Shown: in pieces, positions 1 through 49,620 of the stretch
How the letters are laid out: the number at the start of each line of letters is the position of its first letter
Numbering within the stretch: the first letter of the stretch is position 1
Assembly (NCBI RefSeq): GCF_964194025.1
Contig: NC_134471.1
Location: forward strand, 63,364,001 to 63,428,000
Direction of reading: 5' to 3'
Origin: Convolutriloba macropyga
Lineage: Eukaryota
Length of the DNA: 64,000 bases
The notes under the pieces: generated by a model
Databases searched by the model: none
Told to the model about the DNA's origin: nothing
Seen by the model: the letters and a program-made list of their open reading frames with translations, nothing else
Translations under genes and position numbers: made by a program

Positions 1-3000
1 TAGGTAGATTGTAAAACAAAAAAAAAATTTTGGCATAGCTCGCCTAGGAAAAAAGTTAGTTTTTCGTACGGAAATTTGCTATTATTTCAAATAAATAATT
101 TTAAAAATAGGTCTTTTTGATTAGGTCATAGAGTTGTCCAAACTGAACCAAATTTGGTATGGAGTATCCCAGTTCTACCGAGAGCGTAAAACAAAAAGAA
201 TTTTTGGTATAGCTTTGCTAGAAAAAAGTTCATATTTCAATCGGAAATATCGACTTATTTGCTTATTATTCGCTTATTCTATTTTCAAAAATATAGAAAT
301 TTTATCGGATCAAGGAGTTGTCCAAATCAAACCAAACATTTTATAGAGTGTCCCCTTCGTAGGTAGAGTGTAAAACAAAAAAAGTTTTGTATAGCTTGCC
401 TAGGAAAAAAGTTAGTATTTCATACGGAAATTTCGACTTATTCGCTTATTCTATTTTTAAAAATATAGAAATTTTATCGGATCAAGGAGTTGTGCAAATC
501 GAAGCAAACTCGGTATGGAGTATCCCATGTATACCTAGAGCGTAAAACAAAAAGAGTTTTTGGTATAGCTTTGCTCGAAAAAAAGTTCATATTTCAATCG
601 GAAATATCGATTTATTCGCTTATTATACGCTTATTCTATTTTCAAAAATATAGAAATTTTATCGGGGCAAGGAGTTGTCCAAATTGGAGCAAACTTGGTA
701 TGGACTATCCCATGTGTACCTAGAGCGTAAAACAGAAGAATTTTTGGGTATAGCTTGCCTAGGAATATCAATAACGAATTTCAAAAATAGGTCTTTTTCA
801 TTGGGTCAAGGAGTTGTTCAAAGTGAACCAAACTTGGAATAGAGTATCCCCTTTGTAGGTAGATTGTAAAACGAAAAAAATTTTTGGCATAGCTTGCCTA
901 GGAAAAAAGTTAGTTTTTCGTACGGAAATTTGCTATTATTTGAAATAAATAATTTAAAAAATAGGTCTTTTTGATTAGGTCATAGAGTTGTCCAAACTGA
1001 ACCAAATTTGGTATGGAGTATCCCAGTTCTACCTAGAGCGTAAAACAAAAAGAATTTTTGGTATAGCTTTGCTAGAAAAAAAGTTCATATTTCAATCGGA
1101 AATATCGACTTAATTGCTTAATATTCGCTTATTCTATTTTCAAAAATGTAGAAATTTTATCGGATCAAGGAGTTGTCCAAATCGAACCAAACTTGTTATA
1201 GAGTATCCCCTTTGTAGGTAGATTGTAAAACAAAAAAAATTTTTGGCATAGCTTGCCTAGGAAAAAAGTTAGTTTTTCGTACGGAAATTTGCTATTATTT
1301 CAAATAAATAATTTTAAAAATAGGTCTTTTTGATTAGGTCATAGAGTTGTCCAAACTGAACCAAATTTGGTATGGAGTATCCCAGTTCTACCGAGAGCGT
1401 AAAACAAAAAGAATTTTTGGTATAGCTTTGCTAGAAAAAAGTTCATATTTCAATCGGAAATATCGACTTATTTGCTTATTATTCGCTTATTCTATTTTCA
1501 AAAATATAGAAATTTTATCGGATCAAGGAGTTGTCCAAATCAAACCAAACTTGGCATAGAGTATTCCCTTTGTAGGTAGATTGTAAAACAAAAAAAAATT
1601 TTGGCATAGCTTGCCTAGGAAAAAAGTTAGTTTTTCGTACGGAAATTTGCTATTATTTCAAATAAATAATTTTAAAAATAGGTCTTTTTGATTAGGTCAT
1701 AGAGTTGTCCAAACTGAACCAAATTTGGTATGGAGTATCCCAGTTCTACCTACAGCGTAAAACAAAAAGAATTTTTGGTATAGCTTTGCTAGAAAAAAAG
1801 TTCAGATTTCAATCGGAAATATCGACTTATTTGCTTATTATTCGCTTATTCTATTTTCAAAAATATAGAAATTTTATTGGATCAAGGAGTTGTCCAAATC
1901 GAACCAAACTTGATATAGAGTATCCCCTTTGTAGGTAGATTGTAAAACAAAAAAAATTTTTGGCATAGCTTGCCTAGGAAAAAAGTTAGTTTTTCGTACG
2001 GAAATTTGCTATTATTTCAAATAAATTATTTTAAAAATAGGTGTTTTTGATTAGGTCATAGAGTTGTCCAAACTGAACCAAATTTGGTATGGAGTATCCC
2101 AGTTCTACCTAGAGCGTAAAACAAAAAGAATTTTTGGTATAGCTTTGCTAGAAAAAGTTCATATTTCAATCGGAAATATCGACTTATTTGCTTATTATAC
2201 GCTTATTCTATTTTCAAAAGTATAGAAATTTTATCGGATCAAGGAGTTGTCCAAATCGAACCAAACTCCGTATGGACTATCCCATAGGTACCTAGAGCGT
2301 AAAACAGAAAAAAAAATTTGGTATAGCTTGCCTAGCAAAAAAGTTAGTATTTCGTACGGAAATTTGCTAATATTTCAAATAAATAATTTTAAAAATAGGT
2401 CTTTTTGATTAGGTCATAGAGTTGTCCAAACTGAACCAAATTTGGTATGGAGTATCCCTGTTCTACCTACAGCGTAAAAGAAAAAGAATTTTTGGTATAG
2501 CTTTGCTAGAAAAAAATGTTCATATTTCAATCGGAAATATCGACTTATTTGCTTATTATACGCTTATTCTATTTTCAAAAGTACAGAAATTTTATCGGAT
2601 CAAGGGGTTGTCCAAATCGAACCAAACTCCGTATGGACTATCCCATGTGTACCTAGAGCGTAAAACAGAAAAAATTTTTGGGATAGCTTGCCTAGGAAAA
2701 AAGTTAGTATTTCGTACGGAAATTTGCTATTATTTCAAATAAATAATTTTAAAAATAGGTCTTTTTGATTAGGTCATAGAGTTGTCCAAACTGAACCAAA
2801 ATTGGTATGGAGTATCCCAGGTCTAATTAGAGCGTAAAACAAGAAGAATTTTTGGTATAGCTTTGCTAGAAAAAAAGTTCGTATTTCAATCGGAAATATC
2901 GACTTATTTGCTTATTATACGCTTATTCTATTTTCAAAAGTATAGAAATTTTATCGGGTCAAGGAGTTGTCCAAATTGAACCAATTTTGGTATAGATTAT

Positions 3001-5760
3001 CCCCCTTGTAGGTAGAGTGTAAAACAAAAAGAATTTTTGGTGTAGCTTGCCTAGGAAAAAAAGTTAGTATTTCGTACGGAAATTTGCTATTATTTCAAAT
3101 AAATAATTTTAAAAATAGGTCTTTTTGATTAGGTCATAGAGTTGTCCAAACTGAACCAAATTTGGTATGGAGTATCCCAGTTCTACCTAGATCGTAAAAC
3201 GAAAAGAATTTTTGGTATAGCTTTGCTAGAAAAAAAGTTCATATTTCAATCGGAAATATCGACTTATTTGCTTATTATACGCTTATTCTATTTTCAAAAT
3301 TATAGAAATTTTATCGGATCAAGGGGTTGTCCAAATCGAACCAAACTCCGTATGGACTATCCCATGTGTACCTAGAGCGTAAAACAGAAAAAATTTTTGG
3401 GATAGCTTGCCTAGGAAAAAAGTTAGTATTTCGTACGGAAATTTGCTATTATTTCAAATAAATAATTTTAAAAATAGGTCTTTTTGATTAGGTCATAGAG
3501 TTGTCCAAACTGAACCAAAATTGGTATGGAGTATCCCAGGTCTAATTAGAGCGTAAAACAAGAAGAATTTTTGGTATAGCTTTGCTAGAAAAAAAGTTCG
3601 TATTTCAATCGGAAATATCGACTTATTTGCTTATTATACGCTTATTCTATTTTCAAAAGTATAGAAATTTTATCGGGTCAAGGAGTTGTCCAAATTGAAC
3701 CAATTTTGGTATAGATTATCCCCCTTGTAGGTAGAGTGTAAAACAAAAAGAATTTTTGGTGTAGCTCGCCTAGGAAAAAAAGTTAGTATTTCGTACGGAA
3801 ATTTGCTATTATTTCAAATAAATAATTTTAAAAATAGGTCTTTTTGATTAGGTCATAGAGTTGTCCAAACTGAACCAAATTTGGTATGGAGTATCCCAGT
3901 TCTACCTAGAGCGTTAAACGAAAAGAATTTTTGGTATAGCTTTGCTAGAAAAAAGTTCAAATTTCAATCGGAAATATCGACTTATTTGCTTATTATACGC
4001 TTATTCTATTTTCAAAAGTATAGAAATTTTATCGGATCAAGGAGTTGTCCAAATCGAACCAAACTCCGTATGGACTATCCCATGTGTACCTAGAGCGTAA
4101 AACAGAAAAAGTTTTTGGGATAGCTTGCCTAGGAAAAAAGTTAGTATTTCGTACGGAAATTTGCTATTATTTCAAATAAATAATTTTAAAAATAGGTCTT
4201 TTTGATTAGGTCATAGAGTTGTCCAAACTGAACCAAATTTGGTATGGAGTATCCCAGGTCTAATTAGAGCGTAAAACAAGAAGAATTTTTGTGGTATAGC
4301 TTTGCTAGAAAAAAAGTTCGTATTTCAATCGGAAATATCGACTTATTCGCTTACGCTTATTCTATTTTCAAAAATATAGAAATTTCATCGGGTCAAGGAG
4401 TTGTCCAAATTGAACCAATTTTGGTATAGAGTATCCCCTTTGTAGGTAGAGTGTAAAACAAAAAGAATTTTTGGTGTAGCTTGCCTAGGAAAAAAGTTAG
4501 TTTTTCATACGGAAATTTCGACCTTTTCGCTTAGGATTATTCTATTTTCAAAAATATAGAAATTTCATCGGGTCAAGGAGTTGTCCAAATTGAACCAAAC
4601 TTGGTTTTGGGTATCCCCTTTGAAGGTAGAGTGTAAAACAAAAAGAATTTTTGCAAAAGCTTGTCTAGAAAAAAGTTTGTATTTCGATCGGAAATATCTA
4701 CTTATTCGCTTATTCGATTTTCAAAAATATAGAAATTTCATCGAGTCAAGGAGTTGTCCAAATTGAACCAAACTTGGTATGGAGTATCCCATGTGTACTT
4801 AGAGTGTAAAGCAAAAAAATTTTTGGTATAGCTTGCCTAGGAAAAGAGTTAGTTTTCCATACGGAAATTTCGACTTATTCGCTTATTCTATTTTCAAAAT
4901 TATAGAAATTTTATCGGATCTAGGAGTCGTCCACATTGAACCAAACTTGGTATGGAGTATCCCATGTGTGTCTAGAGTGTAAAGCGAAAAGAATTTTTGG
5001 TATAGCTTGCCTAGGAAAAAAGTTAATTTTTCATACGGAAATTTCGACTCATTCGCTTATTCTATTTTCAAAAATATAGAAATTTTTATCGGATCAAGGA
5101 GTCGTCCACATTGAACCAAACTTGGTATGGAGTATCCCATGTGTGTCTAGAGTGTAAAGCGAAAAGAATTTTTGGTATAGCTTGCCTAGGAAAAAAGTTA
5201 GTTTTTCATACGGAAATTTCGACTTATTCGCTTATTCTATTTTCAAAAATATAGAAATTTCATCGCTCAACGAGTTGTCCAAAGTGAACCAAACTTGGTA
5301 TGGAGTATTCCATGTGTACCTAGAGTGTAAAGCGAAAAGAATTTTTGGTATAGCTTGCTTAGGAAAAAAAGTCAGTTTCTCATACGGAAATTTCGACTTA
5401 TTCGCTTATTCTATTTTCAAAAATATAGAAATTTCATCGGATCAAGGAGTTGTCCAAATTGAACCAAACTTGGTATGGAGTATCCCATGTGTACCTAGAG
5501 TGTAAAACAAAAAGAATTTTTGGTATAGCTTGCCTAGGAAAAAAGTTAGTTTTTCATACGGAAATTTCGACTTATTCGCTTATTATACGCTTATTCTATT
5601 TTCAAAAATATCGAAATTTCATCGGATCAAGGAGTTGTCCAAATTGAAGCAAACTTGGTATGGAGTATCCCATGTGTATCTAGAGTGTAAAGCAAAAAGA
5701 ATTTTTGATATAGCTTGTCTAGAAAAAAAAGTTAGTTTTGCGTACGGTTTTTTTGAAAAA
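1..5760. repeat. Tandem satellite array, ~170-185 bp monomer; A/B dimers (~358-360 bp) and ~720-bp tetramers towards the window start, diverged monomers at the right edge
   Basis: Recurring GAGTTGTCCAAA(C/T)..GAACCAAA...TTTTTGGTATAGCTT. Near-identical spurious ORFs recur at 1347/1705 (358 bp apart) and 2422/3142 (720 bp apart). Confidence 0.97.
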
Positions 5761-6310: not shown

Positions 6311-6960
6311 GTCTGATCATGAACGCACGAATAGTCTGGCGAACGCACGAAAGACTGATCATGAACGCACGAAAGTCTGGACATGAACGCGCTTAAGTCT
6401 GATGAACGCACAAAAAAATTGTGCGTTCATCAGAACTTTAGTGCGTTCATGTCCAGACTTTCGTCCGTTCATGATCAGACTTTCGTGCGTTCACCAGACT
6501 ATTCGTGCGTTCATGATCAGTTTTCGTGCGTTCACCAGACTATTCGTGCGTTCATGATCAGACTTTCGTGCGTTCACCAGACTTTTCGTGCGTTCATGAT
6601 CAGACTTTCGCGCGTTCACCAGACTATTCGTGCGTTCATGATCAGACTTTCGAGCGTTCACCAGACTATTCGTGCGTTCATGATCAGACTTTCGTGCGTT
6701 CACCAGACTATTCGTGCGTTCATGATCAGATTTTCGTGCGTTCACCAGACTATTCGTGCGTTCATGATCAGACTTTCGTGCGTTCACCAGACTATTCGTG
6801 CGTTCATGATCAGACTTTCGTGCGTTCACCAGACTATTCGTGCGTTCATGATCAGACTTTCGTGCGTTTTTCCTTGTTTCCAGACCATGTAAATTTGAAC
6901 GCACGACAGCCCCGTCGTGCGTTCATCTGGGTCTGGACATATCGACTTTCCATCTGGGAC
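6311..6960. repeat. Foldback minisatellite: 42-bp tandem unit (two related ~20-22 bp halves) with an inverted left arm; probable non-autonomous element
   Basis: TTCGTGCGTTCACCAGACTA/TTCGTGCGTTCATGATCAGACT repeats at 6420-6870. Reverse-complement copies (GAACGCACGAA) at 6311-6410. Hairpin TGAACGCACGAC..GTCGTGCGTTCA near 6896-6925. Confidence 0.88.
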
Positions 6961-7398
6961 CTCAACCTGGGTACTCCAAACTAAAAAAGAGCTGTAATTA
7001 AAATTGAGACCATTGTTCTATGTTAGAGTTACAAGTTAGAAAATGCTGGCAAAATGATGAGCGTGACGCTGTCTGTTGCCAAAAAACACTCTGTTATATG
7101 TCAGCACAAATGATGTTACTCAGAAAAAAGCTCTAATGACAACAATTAGAAGGACATGGTTTATAATCTAGGTCATTCTAAGGCAAACCCGATGTGGGCT
7201 CCTTTTACAGCCTTAAGGTATAAAGATCTAGGGCTACTAATTTCCGCGCGCGAAGTAGACTTACCTATATCTCTAAGACTAACCTACTCTGTAAAACACT
7301 GAGAGTAAACTTCTATTATTATGTTGGTTAAGAAGTATAGCACCGGAGTCAATGGTGTACACATGGTGTATCTAACTAAAAGACTGACTATAGTTAGT

Positions 7399-7915
7399 TC
7401 AGTTCTCTCTATAAAAAAGAGAATAGTGTCTTCTCAGTGTCTGATTGGTTGAAGGTGCACATTCAGTATTTTCACTGCTACATCCATCCGGGGTTGAGAG
7501 TTTCAAATCCGAATCTGTGAAATGTAGCAGAAATACGTTGAATGTGTCATCCTCGTTGAAAAGTAGGGCCGAGTGAGTGATGAGTTGTGTCCTCTCTGAA
7601 GTGGATTGTGACTTGTATTGTCGTTTGAAGTCCCTGTCAGTGAAGAAGTGACTAGTGTCGTCAGTGAAGAGGTTTGTCATGTGAAACCAGTAAGGGTGCC
7701 AGTTACAGGGTGTGCTGGCCAGTCTCACTCCCGTTGAGAGTATGCCCAACTGCTCTCACTGTCCTGTAGAGGATTTATTCCCAGTTGGAGGATCGCTTGT
7801 AGTCCGTAGTCTCTGTCTGGTTTGCACGAGGAGATTTCCGTTTATCTCCACCTGGTACAAGGTTTTTGAACTAGTCGGATTTACCAGCTTAGCGTCTGGT
7901 GGAAATCCATCATTT
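7399..7915 (-). pseudogene. Retroelement 3'-most accessory ORF, unknown function
   Basis: ORF 7399-7749 (STPCNWHPYWFH...LLFNEDD) extends upstream through one stop (VEINGNLLVQTRQRLRTT). Confidence 0.45.
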
Positions 7916-8134
7916 ATCTACTGTGTGAGCTACTTTTTCTATTAAATATATTAGTGAAATTTAATACCTTCTTTTGTAAGTCCCGACCGGGGAGAAGAAG
8001 AAAATGACTGATCCTAATCTTCAGTCTTGTGGGAGATATATGGAGAGATATATTCTGTAGAAAGGAAAAAACTAAGAGAATAAAGAAAGAGAACAGAAGA
8101 AAGAAAAATAGGTTTAGGTGAGTTTTTTGAGATC

Positions 8135-8393
8135 AGTGAGTCTTGTTTTGTGAGTCTGTGAGCCCAAGTTGGTGCTGTAGGTCTGCTGCCTACGTCTGGT
8201 ACTCGAACTCGAAATCGGGAGCCCGATTGTCTGGATCACGGAAGAAGGCGCTGAGTTCCGGATCACGTGCCAGACAAGCAGCAATGGCACGGGGTTACAG
8301 ATCAGCGTTAAAGTGTGGTTGTAACGCAAGAAGGTGATTGAAGATCTGTATTTCTTCTTGTGAGGGCTGTCGATTGTCGAGTTCATCGGCCAT
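8135..8393 (-). pseudogene. Small retroelement accessory ORF (~85 aa, helical/acidic)
   Basis: Manual translation from ATG 8393: MADELDNRQPSQEEIQIFNHLLALQPHFNADL*PRAIAACLARDPELSAFFRDPDNRAPDFEFEYQT*AADLQHQLGL, with two point-mutation-type stops. Confidence 0.45.
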
Positions 8394-8789
8394 CCAGTCT
8401 CTCTAGAGGAGGTTGAAAGTGTGGCCATAGGTACACTTCGTGGCGCCTCCTTCTACACTTTGTAGATATTTGATTGGGACGAGGATGGGGCGATTAGTCT
8501 TGGCATAGAGTGGAGAAAAGATGAAATAGTTTCTATTAGGGTCAAAATTACGGAGGGTGCCTTCAAGAGTTGGGTTGAAATATGTAGCTGAAGTTAATAT
8601 AATATGGTGAAGTCAGCTTTGTGTTAGTATACTGAAGACGCGATTTCATGTGGATGATGGGGTTGGTGTGTTGAAAATGATGCTGCAAAAACAATTAGTT
8701 GTGCATCGTGTGAAGCATTTTCACCCGATTAACATTGTGAGTGGTGTTATTTACATCCATCTGTGTGGGATGTAAAAAACCAAATTGTA

Positions 8790-10120
8790 GATAGAAGGGG
8801 TCGTATTTAGCATTTATTTTGTAGGGTGCAGTGTCGCGAGTAAAGAATGTTTTAAGGTAATCGTTGGGCGATCTTTAAATGCAAATAAGTACTTTGGCAG
8901 ATGCCAAAATCGTTCCGTGAACCGAAGATTTAGGGGGAAGTTTAGGCATTCAAGATGCAGGTCCTTGTCCCATCCCTCATGGCCATATTCCTTCTCCAAT
9001 TGTCCAGGAGAACAGGAACTGGCTGTTGGTTTCAGCGTGTGCTGAGGCGGGGTGGAGGTAAAACTGATTCTCTCTGGCACATGTATACCCTGGATGGTAT
9101 TAATGCCGAGAGGGTTTGTAAACTCGTGGAATCTGAAATTTGGTCCTTGTGACCTGTGTGGAATGCCGTGTGTTGGTGCGAAAGGGTTAGGCCTTCTGCG
9201 AGAAGATGAGGGCTGTGGGCCTCGTGAAGGGCTCGCTGAGTGACGAGCTGGCGATTGGGAAACCTGTATCGGTGAGGAGCGAACGGGATATATTTCGTGT
9301 GCTATTGCCCGTGCGCGCCTCTTAGGTGAGGGTTCAGCACGGGTAGTTGTCGGTTGACGTGGGTCGGTTGTAGGGGGTCGGCTGAGGGAAAGATTGTTGA
9401 GGCCTTAGTGGTGGTAGAGCCGGGCCGTACCTCGGTGAGGCTACCGGCGGGCGTTGTGTATGCGGTGTTGGCATCACTGGCGGTGGGTAAACCAGTGGCT
9501 GTGATCGTGCTCGTGCTCCACGGATCCTACCAGAGTACGCCAAATTGGGGACAACCGTCTCTGGTGTGGAGTGACCTGACTGTTCCGCTGTGGGCACTTC
9601 ATCAGCCCAGGATGGAATGTTCGTAGGCTGGATTGGTGGTTGTGCTTTGGATGCTGCTTTGTTCGCAGTAGAAAAGAGTGGAGGTGGCTGCGGCACCTGG
9701 TTGGTTCCCTGGACGAGTAGCTCTTGTGACGAGCTTTGCAGTCCTGTAGGGACTGAGGGTGAGCTCGTGTCACTGTCGATGTACAGGTGAAGTTCACCCG
9801 AGCTCGAAGAAGAAGTGGCGGGTGAAGGCAGTTGGTTCACCCGCGCAAAATTGGCTGTGTCCACAGACTGTGGCTATGGGGAAGATTGCACCATCGTGAA
9901 GAGGGCGGGTGTTTGCTTTTTGCAAACTGGTTCGGTTACTGTTGGTGCCAGCTCCAATGGAGTGAGGGGTGATGGCAGAATGTCATCAACCTCCAGCATG
10001 ATGAGGTCATATGATGTAGGATCGACATTTCGGGGGATTGGTGAGCCTCCTTCTTGGTGGGTAGGAACTGCAGTGGAGTTACTAAAACAGAAGTGTGTTA
10101 AAGACGAGTACTCGGGAGGT
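8790..10120 (-). pseudogene. Pro/Ser/Thr-rich accessory ORF downstream of env
   Basis: ORF 9334-9864 continues upstream in frame (PPEYSSLTHF...PTVTEPV). GC-richer, coding-like composition. The downstream fragment 8814-9080 may belong to it. Confidence 0.5.
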
Positions 10121-10277
10121 TAAGGAAAAGTTCCTCCGGAATTTCCTGGTAGTCAGGATCTTTATCAAGAGAGTCGCGTGAAAGAGAAATTCCACGCGAG
10201 CGTGTACGCTTATTAGGTTGAAAAGTGTGTAGTTGTAACGATTGAAAATCTGGTTTCCTACGAGAATCAATTGCTGT

Positions 10278-12802
10278 TTAATAGCATTGATAAATAGAAG
10301 CTGGTAGAGTGGAGGTATGCCGTTTATTTGAGTTGTTGTGTGCAGGAGAGGAGAATTTTTTATAGAAATTTTCAAACTTTTTGTGTAATAAATTCAATTC
10401 ATGTTGAGAGTGTGGAGTGCAACTGTCGATTGAGTGTCTACGTCGTTTTTTAGGTGAAGGTGGTTTATAATGTGTGGAATCGGATTGTAGCACATGGAAT
10501 ATTGTTTGTGAGAATACTCCAAAAAATCCAGAGGTTATAATTTTAGCCAATGTGATATTGGATCCTAAAAGTGATATTAGATTATAGGTGTTAAATGCGC
10601 TGCAAAATAGGCCGAAAAAGCACTGTAAAAAATTAAAAACAGTCCATATTATGGCCATTTCTTTTAATACGTACCAAGGGTATCCAAAGGTTCCTATGAA
10701 GGATTCTTTTAAATAGTTGCCGTTAATCAAGTCACGCCAATCAAGTCGGCGGAGGGTGAATTCTTTGCCGTTAATAAAGAGTATGTTAAAATAATCATTA
10801 TATTCTGTGCGTAATTGTGAGAACTCTGCTTGTAATTGTGCTTGTTTTGCAAGATCTGCAAAAATTACTGCGCGTGCTACTTCAAATTTTTCCACTGCTT
10901 CGTCAGCTAATTGAATAAATTTCGTCTTATCTATTGGTTTAGTCCAGTCGTGTTGACTGTAGATTCCAAGTTGTTGCGCGGTAATATCAACGTGGGTAAG
11001 TGGTTTTCAACTTCGTTAGGCGTGAAAATTTTAACGGGGTTTCGCGCCTTAATTGGATAGGGTGTTAAGCGATATGTGCCATTGCCGTCTGCGTCGAGTG
11101 AGATTTGTTGATCAAATTTTTCGGATTTACATGGTGCTTTAATCGACCAGGGGAAAGTCATACGGATGACTTGGTCTGCGAGTTGTAATCAATTTTGATA
11201 GTATGTAGGAATACGTTCGAAACACTGATTTTCTAATACATAAAGGGGTGATAAAACAACTTTACATTGGAAGAATGAAATTACAATTTGACTTTTATGT
11301 ATAGCGAATGTGTGTCGCTATCCTGTAATTATATAACCAACTAAAGGAAGTTTCTGTGTGAGTAAAATGAAAGCGGTTTGTTTCAAGTCGCGGTCTCAGT
11401 CGCAAAATTTCTTATAAACACTCAAGCTTGTTAGATCCATTTCGAGCAAGACTTGACTGATCATGTAATCAAGCTTTGCATTGATTTGGACATTAGGGTG
11501 AACAGCGCCAAACCAATTTTATTTTCTAAATAACTCGTTTTTTTTCTGATTTGTGATATAATTGTGATTCTTGTGGAATAACATATCCATCACGGATATT
11601 TGCGTCTGTGTAAGCTGTTAAAGAGGGTGGTCCGTCAGTTACTGTGATCTCTGTGTTATCAAAGTCGGGTGACTGTTTTCCTGCGACAAAATTAAAACCT
11701 TCTTTGTATTGTATAAAAACGTCTTGGTATTGGGTGGCATAATATGGGCGGTCTTCATTACATTTGTAGAAAGCTTTTGTGAGAACCTCGAAACGAGAAA
11801 GTGCGGATTCATAATAAAGGTGTTTTTGAAAACGACTTGAATACATGTGTGCATTGTGTTTATGACCAGAATTGGTTTCATTATTTTCGAGTGTTACAAT
11901 GAAGTATCTTCAATGATGATATTCCAACATCAAAAATACGGCAGTGGTTTTCGGGTTCCCAAATTACTGTGGCTTTAATAGCGTGATTTGGAGGGCATTG
12001 ACCTCGTTCTAGATCACACTTTATGCGAACTTTGCCATAGTACATGTGTTCTGAGGCAACATCGATAGTGAGAGTGATGTTAGTTAATTGGAGTGACCAT
12101 CCTAGTGTGTGGACGACATGATAATCGTTTTCTGGGTCTTTACCGGGACTGTTAGCCCAGGGATTATCTGCGGCATTAGGAATCCAGTTATGATCCCGTA
12201 GGTTATAAACCATGCTACCGTGTTGGAAAGAAAGGGGTCTATAACGATCTAAACGAAAACGACATTGTTTTTCTTCTATATTACTTTGCCAGCGGGGGGT
12301 CGTCTAGTACGTCGAATTGTATCATTTGAGGGCGATAGGGGTTTTTACTTATAAGACCAACGCGTGCAAGTTCTCGACGAGCTTCAATTTCTCTTGGAAA
12401 GAAAGGTCGTTCCATTATATTAACATACCGATTATTGTGATCAAACCGAAAACCTCTTTTGAGTGCGATTTTGTGACAAAAGCTTTCCTTATCGCTAAGT
12501 TTAGCTAAGTTTGGCGTAAGCGCATATTTTAGTGTTCTGATTTGTGAAAAAATTTGAACTTGGGCGGGGAGGATTTTAAAATCGGCCGGCTTAATTTTAC
12601 ATTCGCCAATTTTTTTGAGTTTACAATATTGAATATTTGTGATATGCTTTGGTGAACAATCATAGTGCGTGACGACAAGATATTGTATGCCTGTTTTAGT
12701 TGTAGAAATGTTATGTTGGTCAACTTTAATTGGTTGTTTTATTGGAAGCGGACATGGAAGGAATAAATTAAGTAATATGAGAGTCAAATTTGTAGTGGAC
12801 AT
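10278..12802 (-). pseudogene. env: env-like envelope glycoprotein, class III (herpes gB / chuvirus G-like) fusogen, frameshifted
   Basis: Signal peptide (MSTTNLTLILLNLFLPC), VVTHYDCS..L..IGEC, CDLERGQC...TVIWEPENHC, CNEDRPYYATQY, CFERIPTYY..ADQVIR..APC, and a C-terminal hydrophobic segment (IIWTVFNFLQCFFGLF). Lies downstream of IN on the same strand. Confidence 0.78.
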
Positions 12803-13429
12803 GTGTAGGAAAGTCCAGAGTGTGGATTATAGAAGACAAAATAGCCTGCGTTTATTTGTGTGTCTATCAAATTTGTAGTGTATTTCTTGACAAATGAAGG
12901 GTGATGGATTTGTTTTAACTCAAAAGACAGGTGGTTCTGCAGCTTGTGGGTGAAAGATAAGTTTGTCTTGTTCAACAATTATTTCAACAGAGAATGTGAC
13001 TTTTGGTTGTTTTAATAATTGGTGAGCTCTTTGTTTTTGAACTGGTGTTATTTTATAATATTTAGAGATTCTTTGTTTAGCCTAATTATGCAATTTTTCT
13101 CCGTTGTTATGGTCTCCAAAGAAGGCGGATGGGGGGACAATAAAATTGGGATCTAATTTTAGTGGTAGATTTGGATAAGGTCGTGTCGTGTCGGGTTGTT
13201 TCCCAATACAGTGATGAGAATGTTGATCGGAATCTGGAGTCGGTGAATTTGAGCTTATAGTGATAATGGGTGGTGTACCCGGAAAACTGGGTGGTAGTCA
13301 GCTTTGAAATGACGGTGATGAATTGACTATACCAAAAGAGTGGTTCCAGTGTGCTTGTGATAACAAGCGTTCAAATTTAGTTATTTGTCCTTGTGGCGGA
13401 TTAAAAGGATTATTTACGATTTGTGATGC

Positions 13430-14720
13430 AGTAGGTTAAGAAAATTGAGAACTATTTGGATCAGAATTAGAATTGTCAGAAAGTAGGCTGATATCATATG
13501 TGGTATTGTTTGAGACAGTGTGAATTGGCGCAGTGACAGTGTGAATTGGCTGTGGCAATTCTGAGCAGAGTTTTATCGGTGTTTGCAAAAATTTTTGGTT
13601 GGGTGGAGAACTGTGGAGTGTTTGAATAATTAAGTAATTCAGGTTGTGATGCTCGTGGAGGAGCTGGTTTAGGTGTGGGTGGAGGAGTGTCGTATTTGGA
13701 AGAAAACCAGAGCGTGCCAATAAAGTCTGTGCAGTTGTTTGTTGCTGTTGTTGTGCTTGCGTTTGGTGTATTTGCGTTTGACTTTGATTGGGGTTATCGG
13801 ATTACCGATTGTGGGGTAAATTGGTGGGAGTGTCCAGTAGGACTAGGTCTATCTGTAGATTTGGCAGTAGTAAAAGATTGAGTATGGGTGTTCCTCGGTT
13901 TCTTTTATTTGTGGTTTTTTATTAAAGAGTTTAATTGATGACTTTTTGGGTGTTGATTGTTTAGTTGCTTCGCTGAATGAGCAACTGGCGATTCTGAGAC
14001 GGGGGAAGCACTTGGGTTAGTGTTTGATTGTTGATTAGAGGACGCAATTGTGACAATAATTTTTAGCCAACAGTGGGCCAATTATCGCAATCATAAAACT
14101 TATAGTCAGTAGAGGTGGGGATAACAATTATTAAGAGATTTAAAGTGGGTACACTTACAAGGATTGCTGCGCAGGGTGATTCTGGTGGGATGGCATTATG
14201 GAGATAGATGAGATCTCAAAAATCAGCAGAGAAAACTGTTAATTTTTCAGCAATTGTATAATCTTTTCGTTCAAATGAAAAGATAACATGCGGATATGTA
14301 ATTCTATATGGTGGGTTGTTGTTGTTGTTTGACAATTTTTTGATATTGTTCATCCAATCTTAGGAGTTCCTTAATGTATTTAATATCATATGAGGCTGGA
14401 ATAGCGTCAAGATAAACAGTGTAGACAATATCTGTATATAGAATTTGAGAGAGTTTATTTGCTGCTTGTGGTGGGAAAATAGGAAGATAGAAAAGAGCGA
14501 TGTGTTCGTTATTAAAATCTCTAATATAAAAAACCCATTCACAACAAGTCCGTGAATATAGAATCTGATCAAGGTTATAGAAATATCTTGAAAACGGACC
14601 TGTCTAGGTTTAAAATTTTGGATATATCTAAAAGTATCAGCGTAGGGTGTTCTTTTAAACAATACTTCTAGTCTGTGTTGAGAAATTATGTGCATACCTG
14701 ATAAAGTTTAGCCGAGGAGA
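13430..14720 (-). pseudogene. Degraded accessory ORF(s) between integrase and env
   Basis: ORF 14360-14695 plus a frameshifted continuation (YLDAIPASYDIKYIKELLRLDEQYQKIV) and a P/S/T-rich tail. No recognisable domain. Confidence 0.4.
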
Positions 14721-15719
14721 ATTCTTTCAGTACTGTGAGACTGAAAGTTGTGATTTGAGTGTTGTTGTTGTTGTTGCTTCCGTGAGCAGATTTTTGAGAG
14801 CTTTCTGTGAGCTGTCACTGAAGTCAAAGGAGTTAAAAGTTCTGGAAGGATAAAGAACTGTACTGTGAGACAGTTCTTTCTTGTTAAAGAGAGAAGAAGT
14901 AAGGAGTAAAAATTACTTAGAAAGTGAGAAATTTTCTAAGTTGAGATTTAGAAGAGTGAAGAAGAGGGTTTTAGTAGTAGATTATTAAATAGTGTTGAAA
15001 GAAAAGAGAGAAGAGGAAGTTTCAAGAGCGGTGGACTGAAAAGTGATTTTAGACGATATGATTTTGCTTGACCACGACTTTTTAGTCGGGTAAAAAAATG
15101 TTACCGAAACAAATCTTGGGACATAAAGGAGATTAGGGAATTGTTCCCGGACCGAGCTGTGGGTCGGTTATTAACTTAATTATTAGTTAATTTCCTTTTT
15201 ATTATTATCGTGGGGAATGGCCTGTAATTCCCTTCTTTTCTTTTCCTGATGGAGGGAGTTTTGTGGTTCTGCTAGGGTAGCAGGTGAAGAGATAGTCCGG
15301 GTACTTTGTTTACTGGGCTAAGGGGTTTGATTAACTTTCACAGTGAAAGTAATTGTATAACAGGGGAGAGGGGTGAAAGAACTATCAGAATTATTCCTCT
15401 TGTATAAGAAAACGAGGGAATTGTATTTTTATCTGTAGTATATTTAGTAGCAATTTAGCGTGTTATGATAAACTGTATTCGGCTATTTGAAGCGAGAAGA
15501 GTGATCTAACATTTGTTCTATTCGTGAAGTGTGAATGGTTTTAAGTGTGCGGTGTTCGTGAAGCCGAAAATTTTGATTGTGGTATAAAGACTCTATAGTC
15601 CTTTATTGGTTGTCGTCGAAGACGACTGTTTCTTGTAGTGTAATTTTCGAAAGTGTGTTTGGGTATTTCAGACGGTTTACTAGGTAGATGGGGGGAAAGT
15701 CATCTGCGGATGGTACCTT

Positions 15720-17070
15720 TCAATTGTCTAGACTGAACGAGACAGTCTTCGACTTGGTAACTGGTGGCTTTTTTGGATGGAGTTTTAAAAGTGAATTATC
15801 CGAGAAGTATTTCTCCATTTGTTCTTCAACGAAGAGTTCTTTGGAGTAATATGGTACTATAATACTCCTATTACGGGTGATTTGTTTACCAGAGAAATCT
15901 TCTAGTTTATACGTGACCAATGTAGGAGTATCTATTATTTTATAGGGTCCAATTTTTTGTGGTTGGATCTTTTTAGATACTCCAATTTGTGTGGTTTTAT
16001 TTACTACTAAAACATAAGTGTTTAATTTGATGGGTTTTGCTGTTCCAGAGCGGCGATTTGTAAATGTGCGTAAAGGTTTCTTTTGGTTTAAATAATTATG
16101 TACTTCATTAAAAATTTCCGAGTGTATCTTTTTACGATTAAGAAACCAGTGTGCAAAGGTTCCTTTCTGTAACCTTTTAATTTGCGGGTGATGACCTAAG
16201 TGGTCGGTATGTGTATGATTAGGTACTGAAATACAAGGTGAATTTTTTGTAGCTTGACAGTTTCCTAAGCTATCTGCAGTGAAAGATATATCGAACAGTA
16301 TGGGTTCCTTTGGTTTTTGACCCAAAACAAGTTCATATGGTGAAAGGTTCATTTTGGTCCTGACTTGTGAATTGAATGCAAACGGAAAGACTTTCACTTT
16401 GTGTGACCACATGTCATATTGTGATTCTAAGACTGTTCGAAGAAATGTGTTTAATTGGCGATTACTGTTTTCAAAGAGTCCATTAGACCACGGTGCCTAT
16501 GGCGTACGTGGTATGAATTGTACATTATATGTACGATGGAAATGTGTGAATTCTCCGTTAATGTATTCGTTTCCGTTATCTGTTACCAAAATATCTGGAA
16601 TTCCGAATTTAACAATCCAGTGATCAATTAAAACTGTTAGTGCATTAGTGGCGTAATTTTTGGGTGAAGGGTGGAGGACGACATAGTCTTTAAATGCCTC
16701 CGCAATAACATAGACATAAGAGTTTCCATCAGAAGACGGTGAGATTGGACCTTTTGTATCCATTGAAATACGGTGATTGAAGTGTGTTGAAACTTCAAGA
16801 AATGGCTGTTATGGCTCCATTAAGAGGTTTGGCATGGATTCGCTAGTTTGACAACTTAAGCAATCTTGTGTAAGTATTGCTATCCATGTATTATTGTTTG
16901 GAAAATAATAGTTTTCCATGATTGTTGCGTGTGTTTTTTCACGACCAGGGTGTCCTGAAAGATCATGAGAGTGTGCTTTATAGAAAATAACTAGGAGAAT
17001 AGAGTGTGGTAGGCAAATTTTTGGTGACGTTGTTTCTTTTATGTAATAAAGCAGATTATTGTCTTCGTTA
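15720..17070 (-). pseudogene. pol: Retroelement integrase (HHCC, DDE core, GPY/F)
   Basis: HSHDLSGHPG...CLSCQ near 16850-16980; SMDTKGP; LVTDNGNEY; PWSNGLFE; NLSPYELVLG; KIGPYKII. Confidence 0.93.
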
Positions 17071-17074
17071 ATGC

Positions 17075-19500
17075 TTAATTTTTGAAAACGTCAATAATAA
17101 TGTAGTAATCTTTTATTTGCTCGTATAGTGAGTGAAGGGGTTGGGGAAAATTTTTGTAGTGTTTCCAAAGTAAAAGTTTTCTTAGAACTGGGTCTTGTTG
17201 TGTTTGATAGAGGAGTGTATCATTTATTTCACTTTGTTCTTCGTAGAAGTAATTATAAAGGAGTGGGGACTTTGGTATAAAGTCGTCCATTGCTGGGAAA
17301 GAAAATTTTATACTATTTATTAACTCAGCGTAATTTACGTCGTGGTTGGATTGTATGAAAGGTTCTGTTATGTCTGTGTTTAGTGTGACATCTGTGTGTT
17401 GTATAAGAGGATAATTTTCTGGAATTGAGTAATCATTTATAAACTGTAATTGTTTTTGTTGGTGCATATTCTCCAGGGGCTGTGCTTTGGTGATAAATTC
17501 ATAATGTGAGACTGGGAGATAAAGATCATTTTCTAATTGTACTTCGAAATAATTATCTTTAATCTGTAAGTAGATTGGAAAGTGTGTTGATTCTACATGA
17601 GTGTCTTTAGATACTGAATTGATATATTCTTTTGATACAGTGTAGTGACACTGTATAGGTTGTGTATTTTGATTGTGCGTCATAAAGAAGTTAATCGAAT
17701 CGGGTATTTCGACTGTGCAAAGACGGTGTTCTTCTTTTGTTGTCGTCGTCAGTGAGCGACTTAGTAGGTCTGGAAGTGAAAGATTTTTTCTTCTGTCCAA
17801 ACTAAGTGTAGGTTTGGAAATTTCATTAGTAATAATTGAAAATTGTAAACACTGTGATTTGGTTTATTCTTTTGTGTAAATAGGAATAAAATTGGTTTAT
17901 GGTCAGTGTATAATACTATCTGGTGTTTAGACCATTGAATAAGAAATTCGTATTCTGAAAATGCATATATTTTGGCTGAGCATTCGCGAAGAATGGTGGA
18001 TAATCTAAGTTCTGTGGTGGAAAATAGTCGAGAGTTTGCCGACACTAGTTCCATTTTTCCAAATTGATTTTTTTGGAGGAATGCTGTTCCAATGCCATAG
18101 TTAGAGGCATCGCAGAGAATATAGAAGGGTTTTTCTGAATTATAAATTGCGAGGCGGAGTGTTCCGTCCGTAAGTTCTTTTTTGACTCTATCAAATGTTT
18201 GTTGTAATTCAGGAGTCCATTTAAAATCTGTTGTATCTCTGAGTTGGAGATAAAAAGGTCGAAGAATGACTTGTAGGTTGTATATATATTTTGAAGAAAA
18301 GGTGAGAAATCTGACATTATTTCAATTTCTTTTTTATTCTTAGTTAGTTGTAATTTTAAAAATCGGTCTATTTTTGATTTGAATGGGTGTATTGGAGTGG
18401 GTGTATGAGAAACTGAGTCCAAGAAAAAGAAAGATTTGTCTGGAGCGGCTTTGCGGTTTTCTTTCTCTAAATCAGTGTGATTTTGAGTAAGTGTTTGCAA
18501 CATTGTGTCTGTTGTTGTGTCTTGGATGAAAACGTCATCCAGATAAGTGATTATTTTGTTTTTTCTAATTAGTGGTTTGAAAATACTGCTCATGAAAGAT
18601 GAAAAGTCTGCTGGGCCAATAGAAATACCATAGAATAAGCGTTTAAAACAGTATTGTTGCCCAGCAATCACAAAATTGGTTAGTCTTTATGATGGTTTGT
18701 CAAGTGGCATCTGGTTGTATGCACTGTTCATATCAGCTATAGAGAGAAATGGTCCTTTAATCCGTGTTAGAGTAATGTGAATTGGTTCCATGGGCCAACT
18801 TCATTTTGTTTCATCAATTGATGTGGTGTGTTCATTGTGGCCTGTTCATTGTGTTCATTGGTGTGTTCATTGTGTTTAATTGACGGGCGTCTAGGACAAC
18901 TTTTAAGGAATCTCCTTTTTTAAGGATGATCACTGGGTTAATGGATGTATTTCCTGTGGTTAAGGAGTCTGCCTTTACGGGTGCTATGATATCAAAGTGT
19001 GTTAAGGTGCCGAATAAATGTTGTACTCTATCTTGTAATTGAAGTGGAATACGAGTAGCTCTTTGTTTTTTAAAGATAGTTGTTGCTTTAAGGTGAAGAT
19101 ATAGTTCTACTTTAGTTTTCCCAACATCGAATTTGGAAGTTTCAAAACAATTTTGAAATTGCATGAGGAGTTCTGCTGATTTTTCAAATTGTGCTTGTGT
19201 TAATTTGGTGTGTTCAATTTTAAACATGGTGAGAAAATCTTTATTCGTTTTGGTGAATTTTGAGACATCAAATGTTATGGTGAACTTTTTCTGTTGTGAT
19301 TTGTATCCGCTTTCTTGTTGTTTACTAAGATTTATGCAATAGAGTTTTTTAAGTGTTTCTGACGTACCTTGAGTGAGGTAATTTAAAAAATAAGCATCCA
19401 TGAATTCTGTGGGTTCATTTATGCGATTTTTTGTGGTTTGATAGTCATTCAGTGAAACATTTTGTTTTGCATATCCAATTATAGCCTTTTACGAGTGTTA
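17075..19500 (-). pseudogene. pol: Reverse transcriptase, RNase H and a long RH-IN linker
   Basis: VLDARQLN, IADMNSAYNQ, YCFKRLFYGISIGP, YLDD (~18540); RNase H LCDASNYGIG, REC, YTDHKP, DLLSR. Confidence 0.95.
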
Positions 19501-19563
19501 ATGGGTGATTCGAAGTATTCTGTATTAAAATTTGGATATATGATTGATAGGGGTATTCGAGAT

Positions 19564-19891
19564 TGCTTTGGTTTTATATTCATAATGTGAGACTGGGAGA
19601 TAAAGATCATTTTCTAATTGCACTTTGAAATAAATATCTTTAATCTGTAAATAGATTGGAAAGTGTGGTGATTCTACATGAGTGTCTGTAGATACTGAAC
19701 TAATATGTTCTTTTGATACAGCGTAGTGACACTGTATAGGTTGTGTATTTTGAATGTGCGTCATAAAGAAGTTAATCGAATCGGGTATTTCGACTGTGCG
19801 AAAACGGTGTTCGTCTTGTGTTGACGTCGTCAGAGAGCGACTTAGTAGATCTGGAAGTGAAAGATTTTTTCTTCTGTTCAAACTATGTGTA
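19564..19891 (-). repeat. Diverged second copy of pol segment 17483-17810 placed upstream of RT
   Basis: Both 328 bp, colinear; both translate RRKNLSLPDLLSRSLTT...LENDLYLPVSHYE with scattered substitutions. Confidence 0.93.
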
Positions 19892-49100: not shown

Positions 49101-49620
49101 AATCAACAGCTACTTCTCAATAAAAAGTATATTTGGCAGAGTCTCTAACAAATGCTTTCCGTCTGTTAACTTCAGCTGCTGGAATTTGCCAGGTGTTCTC
49201 TTTGTGTGAATAACTTTGGCATGGCAACCAAGTTTCTTTCACATCTTTGTTTTGAGAAAACTCAGTTTCATTGAAACTTTTGTTAGCATTACCTCCAATT
49301 GACTTTGAAATTTTTAATCCATTGGCAGATACTGTGCAGTCAGAAAAGAGCGAATGTAAAACATTATTGCAGAAGTATGGGCGTCTGTTTTAATTACGTT
49401 TGCTGCAGCTCCAATGTCATATTTCAAATCGCCTTCAGAAGCTTGAACTATCTTGCAATTGATTTCCAGGAAATTTTTTTTTGTAAGGCAATAAAATTTT
49501 TTCTTTCTCCAGCCATCTCAAATTCAAGCATGGGTCTGTTAGGGCTGTAAACCGGTCCTATTTTTGACAATAATTTCCATCAAAAATAAAGAAGCGCTGG
49601 TTTTTCGAATAAATCCAGGG
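43115..49620 (-). repeat. ~1513-bp tandem array (~4.3 units) of major capsid gene plus 5' half of the protease
   Basis: MDEDKINSLVQACKLLKY ORFs start at 43813, 45324, 46838 and 48351; MCP fragments recur with the same spacing. Confidence 0.96.
43571..43813 (-). pseudogene. Adenain-like cysteine protease, 5' half (only copy retaining the catalytic-His motif GAHW)
   Basis: VFAAD..P....INVN....GAHW....FADPHG. The C-terminal Q/C motif is absent. Copies at 45106-45324, 46596-46838 and 48109-48351 read GAYW. Confidence 0.85.

What the first reader, a model, noticed from the sequence alone, without database searches (positions are those of the whole stretch)
7399..15700. Complex-retrovirus-like Gypsy element: accessory ORFs on both sides of env
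Seen: ~2.9 kb of coding-like remnants between IN and env, and ~2.9 kb after env holding at least three same-strand ORF remnants. These are a P/S/T-rich ORF containing PPEY, an ~85-aa helical ORF and a ~170-aa ORF. The element exceeds 12 kb without gag. Established: typical errantiviruses are gag-pol-env only, whereas accessory genes typify lenti- and spumaviruses. Inference: a possibly undescribed lineage of large enveloped invertebrate retroelements with regulatory or anti-defence genes.
Basis: partly seen in the sequence, partly recalled or inferred. Interest (0 to 1): 0.75.

Follow-up and report, generated by a model that had tools for sequence, protein, structure and literature searches.

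The report
Enveloped Gypsy element with four accessory genes
This is a decayed copy of a large virus-like jumping gene that carries four extra protein genes around its envelope gene, all kept by natural selection and unlike known proteins, a layout that recalls complex retroviruses.

Summary
The core observation holds; several details do not. The window holds a decayed, 5'-truncated copy of a multicopy 16-17 kb Ty3/Gypsy element with a chuvirus/gB-type env (PF24664). Both flanking segments are collinear in other copies (each part in 15-20 of 20). Pairwise dN/dS among natural copies shows four accessory genes: A0 (~130 aa), A1 (~100-120 aa) and A2 (~420 aa) before env, and one ORF B (~630 aa) after it; omega 0.08-0.25 against 0.6-1.1 in spacers. 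A 21-kb sister family (RT 59%) keeps homologues of A0, A2 and B in the same order; a further family (RT 40%) has five A0-like genes. Conserved splice sites, an AUU in start context and AUG depletion suggest spliced, polycistronic, leaky-scanned RNAs; this is inferred, with no RNA data. No accessory protein has a significant family or fold match. Verdict: a new variant of a known kind.

The parts
7179..7482 (-). 3' LTR (~304 bp, ends TG...TA); carries a conserved splice-donor motif near 7264
   Evidence: matches the 5' end of other copies 16-17 kb upstream; ends and 4-bp target duplications; donor in 15 of 24 3' LTRs and 8 of 11 5' LTRs
7483..8189 (-).
   Evidence: omega 0.61-0.93 in all six frames; codon-position counts
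8190..10086 (-). ORF B, ~630 codons: S/P/T-rich N-half, ~320-aa conserved C-domain with a small SH3/Tudor/KOW-like barrel; broken in this copy
   Evidence: homologues at 32-35% in the sister family; low-confidence model
10080..10096 (-). putative splice acceptor at the start of ORF B
   Evidence: pyrimidine tract plus AG in 22 of 24 rows; also in front of B in the sister family
10098..12802 (-). env, ~900 codons, class III (chuvirus/gB-like) fusion glycoprotein; broken in this copy; its ATG overlaps the end of A2
   Evidence: PF24664 above cut-off; omega 0.12-0.13; C-terminal hydrophobic segment
12784..14048 (-). ORF A2, ~420 codons, no in-frame ATG; S/P/T-rich part plus conserved ~120-aa C-domain; AUU start inferred near 14045
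   Evidence: omega 0.14-0.17, C-domain 0.06; 38-41% to the sister family; start context in 17 of 20 rows
13987..14353 (-). ORF A1, ~100-120 codons, ATG overlapping the end of A0; no homologue detected outside families 1 and 2
   Evidence: omega 0.23-0.25 in the non-overlapping part; ATG shared by at least half of the rows; frame constraint ends near 14057
14304..14695 (-). ORF A0, ~130 codons; member of a small-protein family repeated in other elements of this genome
   Evidence: omega 0.08-0.12; ATG in 19 of 23 rows; reciprocal HMM hits above reversed decoys
14696..14715 (-). putative splice acceptor two bases before the A0 ATG (the same letters also read as a donor)
   Evidence: AG-GT-ATG context in 15 of 23 rows; branch-like and pyrimidine-rich upstream sequence in the window
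14716..15600 (-). non-coding spacer after integrase
   Evidence: omega 0.70-1.14 in all six frames
15603..19641 (-). pol remnant (RT, RNase H, integrase), starting downstream of protease; gag, protease and 5' LTR lost
19564..19891 (-). duplicated piece of the RNase H-integrase bridge (copy of 17483-17810) at the rearranged 5' end
   Evidence: 93% identity

Best explanation
The window holds an old, 5'-truncated copy of a 'complex' env-bearing Ty3/Gypsy element: LTR - one long gag-pol ORF - spacer - A0 - A1 - A2 - env - B - LTR, 16-17 kb, primed by tRNA-Met. SHOWN: A0, A1, A2 and B are protein genes of the element, kept by purifying selection while it replicated; A0, A2 and B have homologues in the same positions in a diverged sister family. 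INFERRED (about 60%): the full-length RNA makes Gag-Pol; a donor in the 5' LTR is spliced to an acceptor before A0, giving one polycistronic A0-A1-A2-env RNA read by leaky scanning or reinitiation, with A2 starting at AUU; a second acceptor gives the B RNA. GUESSED: B is a regulator of viral RNA synthesis or export, in the manner of Cer1 CERV, Rev or Tas (about 40%); A2, translationally coupled to env, is an assembly or budding adaptor (about 35%); the A0 family, variable in copy number and fast diverging, acts on host defence (about 30%). The confidence figure is for the shown part.
For: Collinear copies; frames without shared stops; omega with alternative-frame and spacer controls in families 1-2 and separately in family 3 (0.09-0.22 against 0.6-1.1, one spacer frame at 0.37); same gene order in family 3; A0 family in families 3 and 4; B homologue in records with no close match in G000; LTRs, 4-bp target duplications (8 of 9 exact) and PBS; donor and acceptor conservation; AUG depletion in A1+A2 (4 against 11.5 expected and 2 against 10.6 in family 2; 3-5 against 12-13.6 in seven family-3 loci) but not in the equally S/P/T-rich N-part of B (12 against 10.9; 15 against 12.5; 7 against 11.5); in family 4 only five AUGs in 1 kb, four of them ORF starts; AUU plus leaky-scanning precedent in RTBV (PMC5902531 passages).
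Against: No transcript or protein evidence. No accessory protein matches Pfam, PHROGs or PDB sequences significantly; models are weak (A2 pLDDT 66, B 36; best Z 5.2 and 5.3), so all functions are guesses. Two to five AUGs remain in A1+A2, some in fair context. The low AUG count is partly compositional: the IN-A0 spacer is also AUG-poor. In families 1-2, B is constrained upstream of its first in-frame ATG, which a non-coding leader does not explain. Family 4 shows no clear acceptor before its first small ORF. A0-family HMM scores are modest (E 4e-5 to 0.02; direct A0 to family-3 profile comparison not significant). dN/dS pairs are not independent.
Confidence: 0.85

Rival explanations
1. The accessory block is transcribed from an internal promoter in the spacer after pol, as for env in Oikopleura Tor3b/4b, not by splicing from the LTR.
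For: Tor4b starts env RNA in the space after pol (PMC4402516 passages); spacers here are 0.9 kb (families 1-2), ~3 kb (family 3) and ~3.9 kb (family 4); no clear acceptor before the first small ORF of family 4.
Against: An acceptor-like site sits two bases before the A0 ATG in 15 of 23 rows and consensus donors lie at the 5' end of families 2, 3 and 4. The two routes are not exclusive.
Confidence: 0.3
2. A2 is made by a -1 frameshift from A1 or by a further splice, not from an AUU start.
For: In family 2, A2 lies in the -1 frame of A1 and the switch region is conserved at all three codon positions; family 3 has an AG a few bases before its AUU in 5 of 6 loci.
Against: In family 3 the upstream ORF is in frame with A2 and ends in a stop shared by 6 of 6 loci; no canonical slippery heptamer seen by eye; purine at -3, AUU, G at +4 is the one feature common to families 1-3.
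Confidence: 0.3
3. A0-A1-A2-env was captured as one block from a negative-strand RNA virus, so that A2 is a matrix-like and the small ORFs virus-derived proteins.
For: Env belongs to the Monjiviricetes fusion family; A2 abuts env in two families.
Against: Families 5 and 6 have the same env type directly after pol, and family 4 has no A2 hit; A0-like genes lie on both sides of env in family 4.
Confidence: 0.15
4. The flanks are passive cargo or independent insertions, and the ORFs are chance open frames.
Against: Collinear in 15-20 of 20 copies; omega 0.06-0.25 in a single sense frame; homologues in diverged families.
Confidence: 0.03

Closest known systems
HSV/gB-type errantiviruses (env-carrying Ty3/gypsy) of Chary & Hayashi 2026, PMC13524379; seen: abstract, sections 5 and 6 (part 1 of 2 each), 7 and 14, passages, part 1 of 34 of supplement file 2
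   Same: Ty3/Gypsy pol with a gB/chuvirus-like env, LTRs, tRNA PBS, multicopy.
   Different: Described as gag-pol-env (or reordered) only; 'accessory' has 0 hits in the main text (the search listing counts 2 in text not held for reading). Its screen allowed up to 1000 nt between pol and env, with manual looks 3-5 kb out in some phyla; here the gap is 2.8 kb or more and holds three genes.
C. elegans Cer1 with CERV, PMC10309623; seen: abstract, section 6, passages
   Same: Invertebrate Gypsy with one gag-pol frame and a ~500-aa accessory protein from a spliced RNA, needed for export of unspliced RNA; the best functional model for B.
   Different: Cer1's ORF replaces env; one accessory gene; homology to B not tested.
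Oikopleura Tor3b/4b, PMC4402516; seen: passages
   Same: [quoted passage not shown]
   Different: No accessory ORFs in the passages read; internal promoter.
Planarian Burro and foamy-like fish ERVs, as reviewed in PMC6431247; seen: passages
   Same: Very large LTR elements with accessory ORFs.
   Different: Burro's env is in frame inside one polyprotein and its extra domains are recognisable host-like modules; the fish elements are Retroviridae.
Drosophila MDG1-group sORF1/sORF2 (PMC11952523; abstract and outline) and bdelloid ORF3s (PMC5408684; abstract, section 3.1)
   Same: Extra ORFs in invertebrate LTR elements.
   Different: One or two extra ORFs, mostly instead of env, not four around it.
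Rice tungro bacilliform virus, PMC5902531; seen: passages
   Same: Works like the inferred A1-A2-env block: AUU start, AUG-poor ORFs, leaky scanning over ~900 nt.
   Different: A plant pararetrovirus; its ORFs I-II have no internal AUG, while 2-5 remain here.

Membership tests
Ty3/Gypsy (Metaviridae) | gag then PR-RT-RNase H-IN order | tested here: met
   Retrotrans_gag, RVT_1, RT_RNaseH, Integrase_H2C2, rve in this order, protease motif between gag and RT; gag and PR seen in other copies, not in the window
Ty3/Gypsy (Metaviridae) | paired LTRs, target-site duplication, tRNA PBS | tested here: met
   LTR pairs; 4-bp duplications 8 of 9 exact; PBS complementary to host tRNA-Met
Ty3/Gypsy (Metaviridae) | RT groups with Ty3/Gypsy | tested here: inconclusive
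   best PDB match Ty3 (104 bits) over foamy (69) and MLV (43); no tree with named references was built
Errantivirus in the operational sense of PMC13524379 | Ty3/gypsy element with an F-type or gB-type env ORF | tested here: met
   PF24664 over cut-off, E 9e-14 and 9e-15; C-terminal hydrophobic segment and cysteines; gB fold itself not modelled
Errantivirus in the operational sense of PMC13524379 | three-ORF layout with env next to pol | tested here: not met
   three selected ORFs and 2.8 kb lie between pol and env, one more after env; adjacency was a search filter in that paper, so this marks a variant
Errantivirus in the operational sense of PMC13524379 | position in the 'ancient' clade and type of RNase H-IN bridge | not tested
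Complex retroviruses (lenti-, spumaviruses) | Retroviridae-type RT and class I Env | tested here: not met
   RT nearer Ty3; env is PF24664
Complex retroviruses (lenti-, spumaviruses) | accessory genes on both sides of env under selection | tested here: met
Complex retroviruses (lenti-, spumaviruses) | accessory genes expressed from spliced or internally started RNAs | tested here: inconclusive
   sites conserved; no RNA data
Complex retroviruses (lenti-, spumaviruses) | trans-acting regulator (Tat/Tas/Rev-like activity) | not testable with these tools
   needs cell assays
Cer1 (CERV) | homology of B to CERV | not tested
   no CERV sequence was returned by any tool
Burro | env in frame within the gag-pol polyprotein | tested here: not met
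   env is a separate ORF downstream of IN

The most novel reading that the evidence does not exclude
These families represent an undescribed radiation of 'complex' Metaviridae that reached retrovirus-like gene regulation independently: 16-21 kb genomes, two spliced RNAs, an AUU-started leaky-scanning cassette coupled to a class III fusogen, a Rev/Tas-like regulator (B), and a new expandable family of small anti-host proteins (A0), with RING-type genes in related families; missed so far because surveys required env next to pol.
Probability: 0.4. Interest if true: 0.87.

Novelty: new variant of a known kind. Interest (0 to 1): 0.72.

Why it matters
Complexity of this kind (several accessory genes around env) is taken as a mark of vertebrate retroviruses. 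Here it is found, with selection evidence, in a Gypsy element with an unrelated fusogen, in several families of one animal genome, some recently spread (LTR pairs 99-100% alike). It offers three protein families without known relatives (A0, A2, B), a testable non-AUG polycistronic expression scheme, and a concrete blind spot in the most recent errantivirus survey.

Tried and rejected
RNA: no RNA holder listed; the four runs laid were contigs of unrecorded kind covering coding and non-coding bins alike, and none of the 15 joints shown of 55 had GT..AG ends; no conclusion on expression. Families: no significant hit for A0, A1, A2, B in Pfam, PHROGs (99) or PDB sequences. Atlas: nothing for B (22); for A0, unnamed clusters at 0.91-0.92 and a weak endonuclease lead at 0.89-0.90, not pursued. 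Folds: A2 C-domain no BFVD match, best Z 5.2 to assorted beta-sandwiches; B model mostly unreliable, only residues 187-240 align, Z up to 5.3, to KOW, Tudor, chromo and SH3 barrels alike. A LytTR-like look of A0 is recalled by eye; Pfam at E 10 gave nothing. Other hosts: no related loci in metagenome or viral contigs (115, 116; 55 failed on a too-diverse alignment); all 52 A2 hits resembled families 2 or 3; only 2 env hits in the length range searched; RT hits carried no names. Rejected: A2 in frame with env (separate frames in natural copies, 28); PPEY as late domain; the ~170-aa ORF (56); tRNA-Leu as primer (60 empty; 117 gives Met). Three of 20 copies with internal duplications were left out; six of 20 were left out. 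Literature searches listed no paper describing this layout; subscription papers, Repbase and Dfam were not searchable, and most supplements of PMC13524379 were not read.
Full report
Setting. The window is G000:C4:63364001-63428000 of a 1.18-Gb genome. The element lies on the minus strand. Window pieces match RT, RNase H and integrase families; none of the pieces between 7400 and 15700 matched Pfam convincingly. A 1.4-kb piece from after env found 425 candidates in the genome, 40 scored. I fetched the 20 best other copies.

Are the segments part of the element? All 20 copies align in the same order, mostly at 83-92% identity. Coverage of at least 70% was found for the IN-A0 spacer in 15 of 20, A0 16, A1 16, A2 18, env 18, B 20, 3' region 20 and LTR 19; B is 20 by construction, since it was the query. 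Upstream stretches of 16 copies show gag with a zinc knuckle, protease and, in most, a second copy of window 7179-7482, which is therefore the LTR. Five paired copies measure 16.2-17.1 kb. The window copy starts downstream of protease and has a duplicated pol piece at its 5' end. The missing gag is damage to this copy.

Which frames are genes? In 17 of the 20 copies plus the window, frames with no stop shared by half the rows run 12826-10101 (915 codons, env), 10097-8193 (637), 13801-12787 (335), 14832-14307 (174), 14359-13987 (123) and 7755-7402 (119); informative sites fall mainly on third positions in env, B and A2. A protein search with the B domain (2428 candidates, 139 scored) led to a second subfamily at 70-79% nucleotide identity whose natural copies hold long frames: A0, A1, A2 (441-451 aa), env, B (632-636 aa) and one long gag-pol frame. 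Using one natural copy for the frames, pairwise dN/dS against 8 family-2 and 15 family-1 rows gave A0 0.12/0.08, A1 outside overlaps 0.23/0.25, A2 0.17/0.14 (C-domain 0.06), env 0.13/0.12 and B 0.11 (N-part 0.21/0.18; synonymous sites saturate in the C-part). The other sense frames of these regions gave 1.1-2.1, the region after B 0.61-0.93 and the IN-A0 spacer 0.70-1.14. The pairs share a reference and include post-insertion decay, which biases omega upward. No stop is shared by more than 2-4 of 24 rows in any frame; the window copy has 0, 2, 4, 6 and 4 stops in A0, A1, A2, env and B, besides frame breaks.

Corrections. PPEY occurs in 2 of 24 rows under the last codons of env; the other row shares this insertion's flank.

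Class of element. Env matches PF24664, Monjiviricetes fusion, the chuvirus/gB-like type that Chary & Hayashi report across invertebrate Gypsy elements. RT-RNase H scores best against Ty3 among solved structures. LTRs end TG...TA with 4-bp target duplications, 8 of 9 exact. The PBS, shared by families 1-3, pairs with a host tRNA-Met. LTR pairs are 89-98% alike in family 1, 97-100% in family 2 and 99-100% in family 3, so family 1 is the oldest.

Depth of the layout. A search of 1.84 billion representatives with the B domain gave 154 hits, some at 30-40%. One defines family 3 in the same genome: 2741 candidates, 71 of the 80 best without a stop in B. Family 3 is 21.1-21.3 kb, RT 59% to family 2, with the order gag-pol, spacer, 136-aa, 59-aa and 115-aa ORFs, A2 (38-41% over 120 aa), env (25-30%), B (32-35%). 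Between its subfamilies omega is 0.15, 0.11, 0.14-0.22, 0.20/0.09, 0.10 and 0.11. Another B homologue (599 aa, same architecture) has no match above 39% among 130 scored of 1339 candidates in G000 and so probably comes from another host; its records are unnamed. A search with PF24664 revealed families 4-6 (RT 40-42% to family 2). Family 4 has three small ORFs before env and a long plus two small ORFs after it. Profiles link these small ORFs to A0: A0 profile to family-4 post-env ORF E 2e-4 (best reversed decoy 0.057); the reverse search hits A0 at 2e-4 and the window's own 14307-14603 piece at 0.002 (decoy 0.56); family-4 pre-env profile hits the family-3 136-aa ORF at 4e-5 to 0.014 (decoy 0.11); 5775 ORFs and 5775 decoys. 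These scores are modest.

How it most likely works. A consensus donor lies in the LTR (15 of 24 3' LTRs, 8 of 11 5' LTRs) and at the 5' end of families 3 and 4. An acceptor-like site precedes the A0 ATG, and another opens B in 22 of 24 rows; in family 3 it stands just before B's ATG, and family 4's long post-env ORF also opens with one. A0, A1, A2 and env overlap end to start, and the env ATG sits in the last codons of A2 in families 1-3. A2 has no methionine in families 2 or 3; selection moves from the A1 to the A2 frame near 14057, where purine, two bases, AUU, G is kept in 17 of 20 rows and in 6 of 10 family-3 loci. AUGs are depleted in A1+A2 relative to a first-order model, but not in B's similarly composed N-part, and family 4 has five AUGs in 1 kb, four of them starts. 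RTBV uses this scheme. I therefore infer two spliced RNAs, one polycistronic and leaky-scanned. No RNA data could test it. Open point: in families 1-2, B is constrained upstream of its first in-frame ATG, so it needs an upstream coding exon or a non-AUG start.

Functions. None is shown. B has a disordered half and a domain whose only usable part resembles generic SH3/Tudor/KOW barrels; with its position and a separate acceptor, a CERV- or Rev-like regulator is my first guess. A2 is coupled to env and carries PSAP or PPxY words that are not conserved in position; a budding adaptor is a weaker guess. The A0 family varies from one to five copies, which suits host-interacting proteins; families 5 and 6 carry RING-like ORFs after env.

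Comparison and verdict. By the operational definition it is a gB-type errantivirus, but the published survey describes three-ORF elements and filtered for env near pol. Single extra ORFs are known in Cer1, MDG1, rotifer and planarian elements. Eight searches of the open library listed nothing with several selected genes on both sides of env in a Gypsy element; Repbase, Dfam and subscription journals were out of reach. It works like a complex retrovirus in layout, but is not a member of Retroviridae. New variant of a known kind; interest 0.72.

Noticed in passing
L088-L091, L095 (G000 C6:25224000-25243499 and others): Family 4, at least 18 kb: gag, pol, ~3.9-kb gap, three tandem ~105-aa ATG ORFs, 898-902-aa env, a 274-284-aa ORF without ATG ending in a coiled coil, two more ~105-aa ORFs; the five small ORFs are related to A0 and show third-position excess.
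   Followed up: partly
L092:8553-9288, L093:645-1479, L094:8387-8881: Families 5 and 6 (env 769 and 828 aa next to pol) carry RING-finger-like ORFs (PF13920, E 3e-6 to 0.007) and small ORFs after env.
   Followed up: partly
L087:6131-6307: Family 3 has a 59-aa ORF with one hydrophobic helix, omega 0.11; worth comparing with MDG1 sORF2.
   Followed up: partly
L071:4800-5562, L081: Family 3 env has a long proline-rich tail under selection (omega 0.15) with PPAY and PSAP words.
   Followed up: partly
L050, L052, L082: Gag-Pol has about 570 residues before the Retrotrans_gag domain with no significant Pfam match; whole frames reach ~2560-2590 codons in family 3.
   Followed up: no
window 19488-19640 and L050: The stretch between protease and RT looks by eye like a decayed dUTPase (recalled motif; no Pfam hit), and ~200 residues separate RNase H from integrase.
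   Followed up: no
window 7483-7500: The sequence before the 3' LTR is conserved in families 1-3 but is not a plain purine tract.
   Followed up: no
window ~12428 and ~7892: Two further shared donor-like sites (19 of 24 rows each); the one inside env is in a phase that would fit the B acceptor, but may only reflect amino-acid conservation.
   Followed up: no
L013 and L033 (C4:63632994-63652492): A segmental duplicate of this insertion about 260 kb away shares the 3' flank and has tandem duplications of pol.
   Followed up: partly
window 1-5750, 6429-6868, 43115-49616: A ~174/359-bp satellite, a 42-bp tandem array and a ~1.5-kb tandem repeat.
   Followed up: no
G000 C1:77.67-77.77 Mb, C4:55.03-55.13 Mb: Long tandem arrays matching the primer tRNA-Met gene pattern; three loci confirmed as tRNA-Met.
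   Followed up: partly
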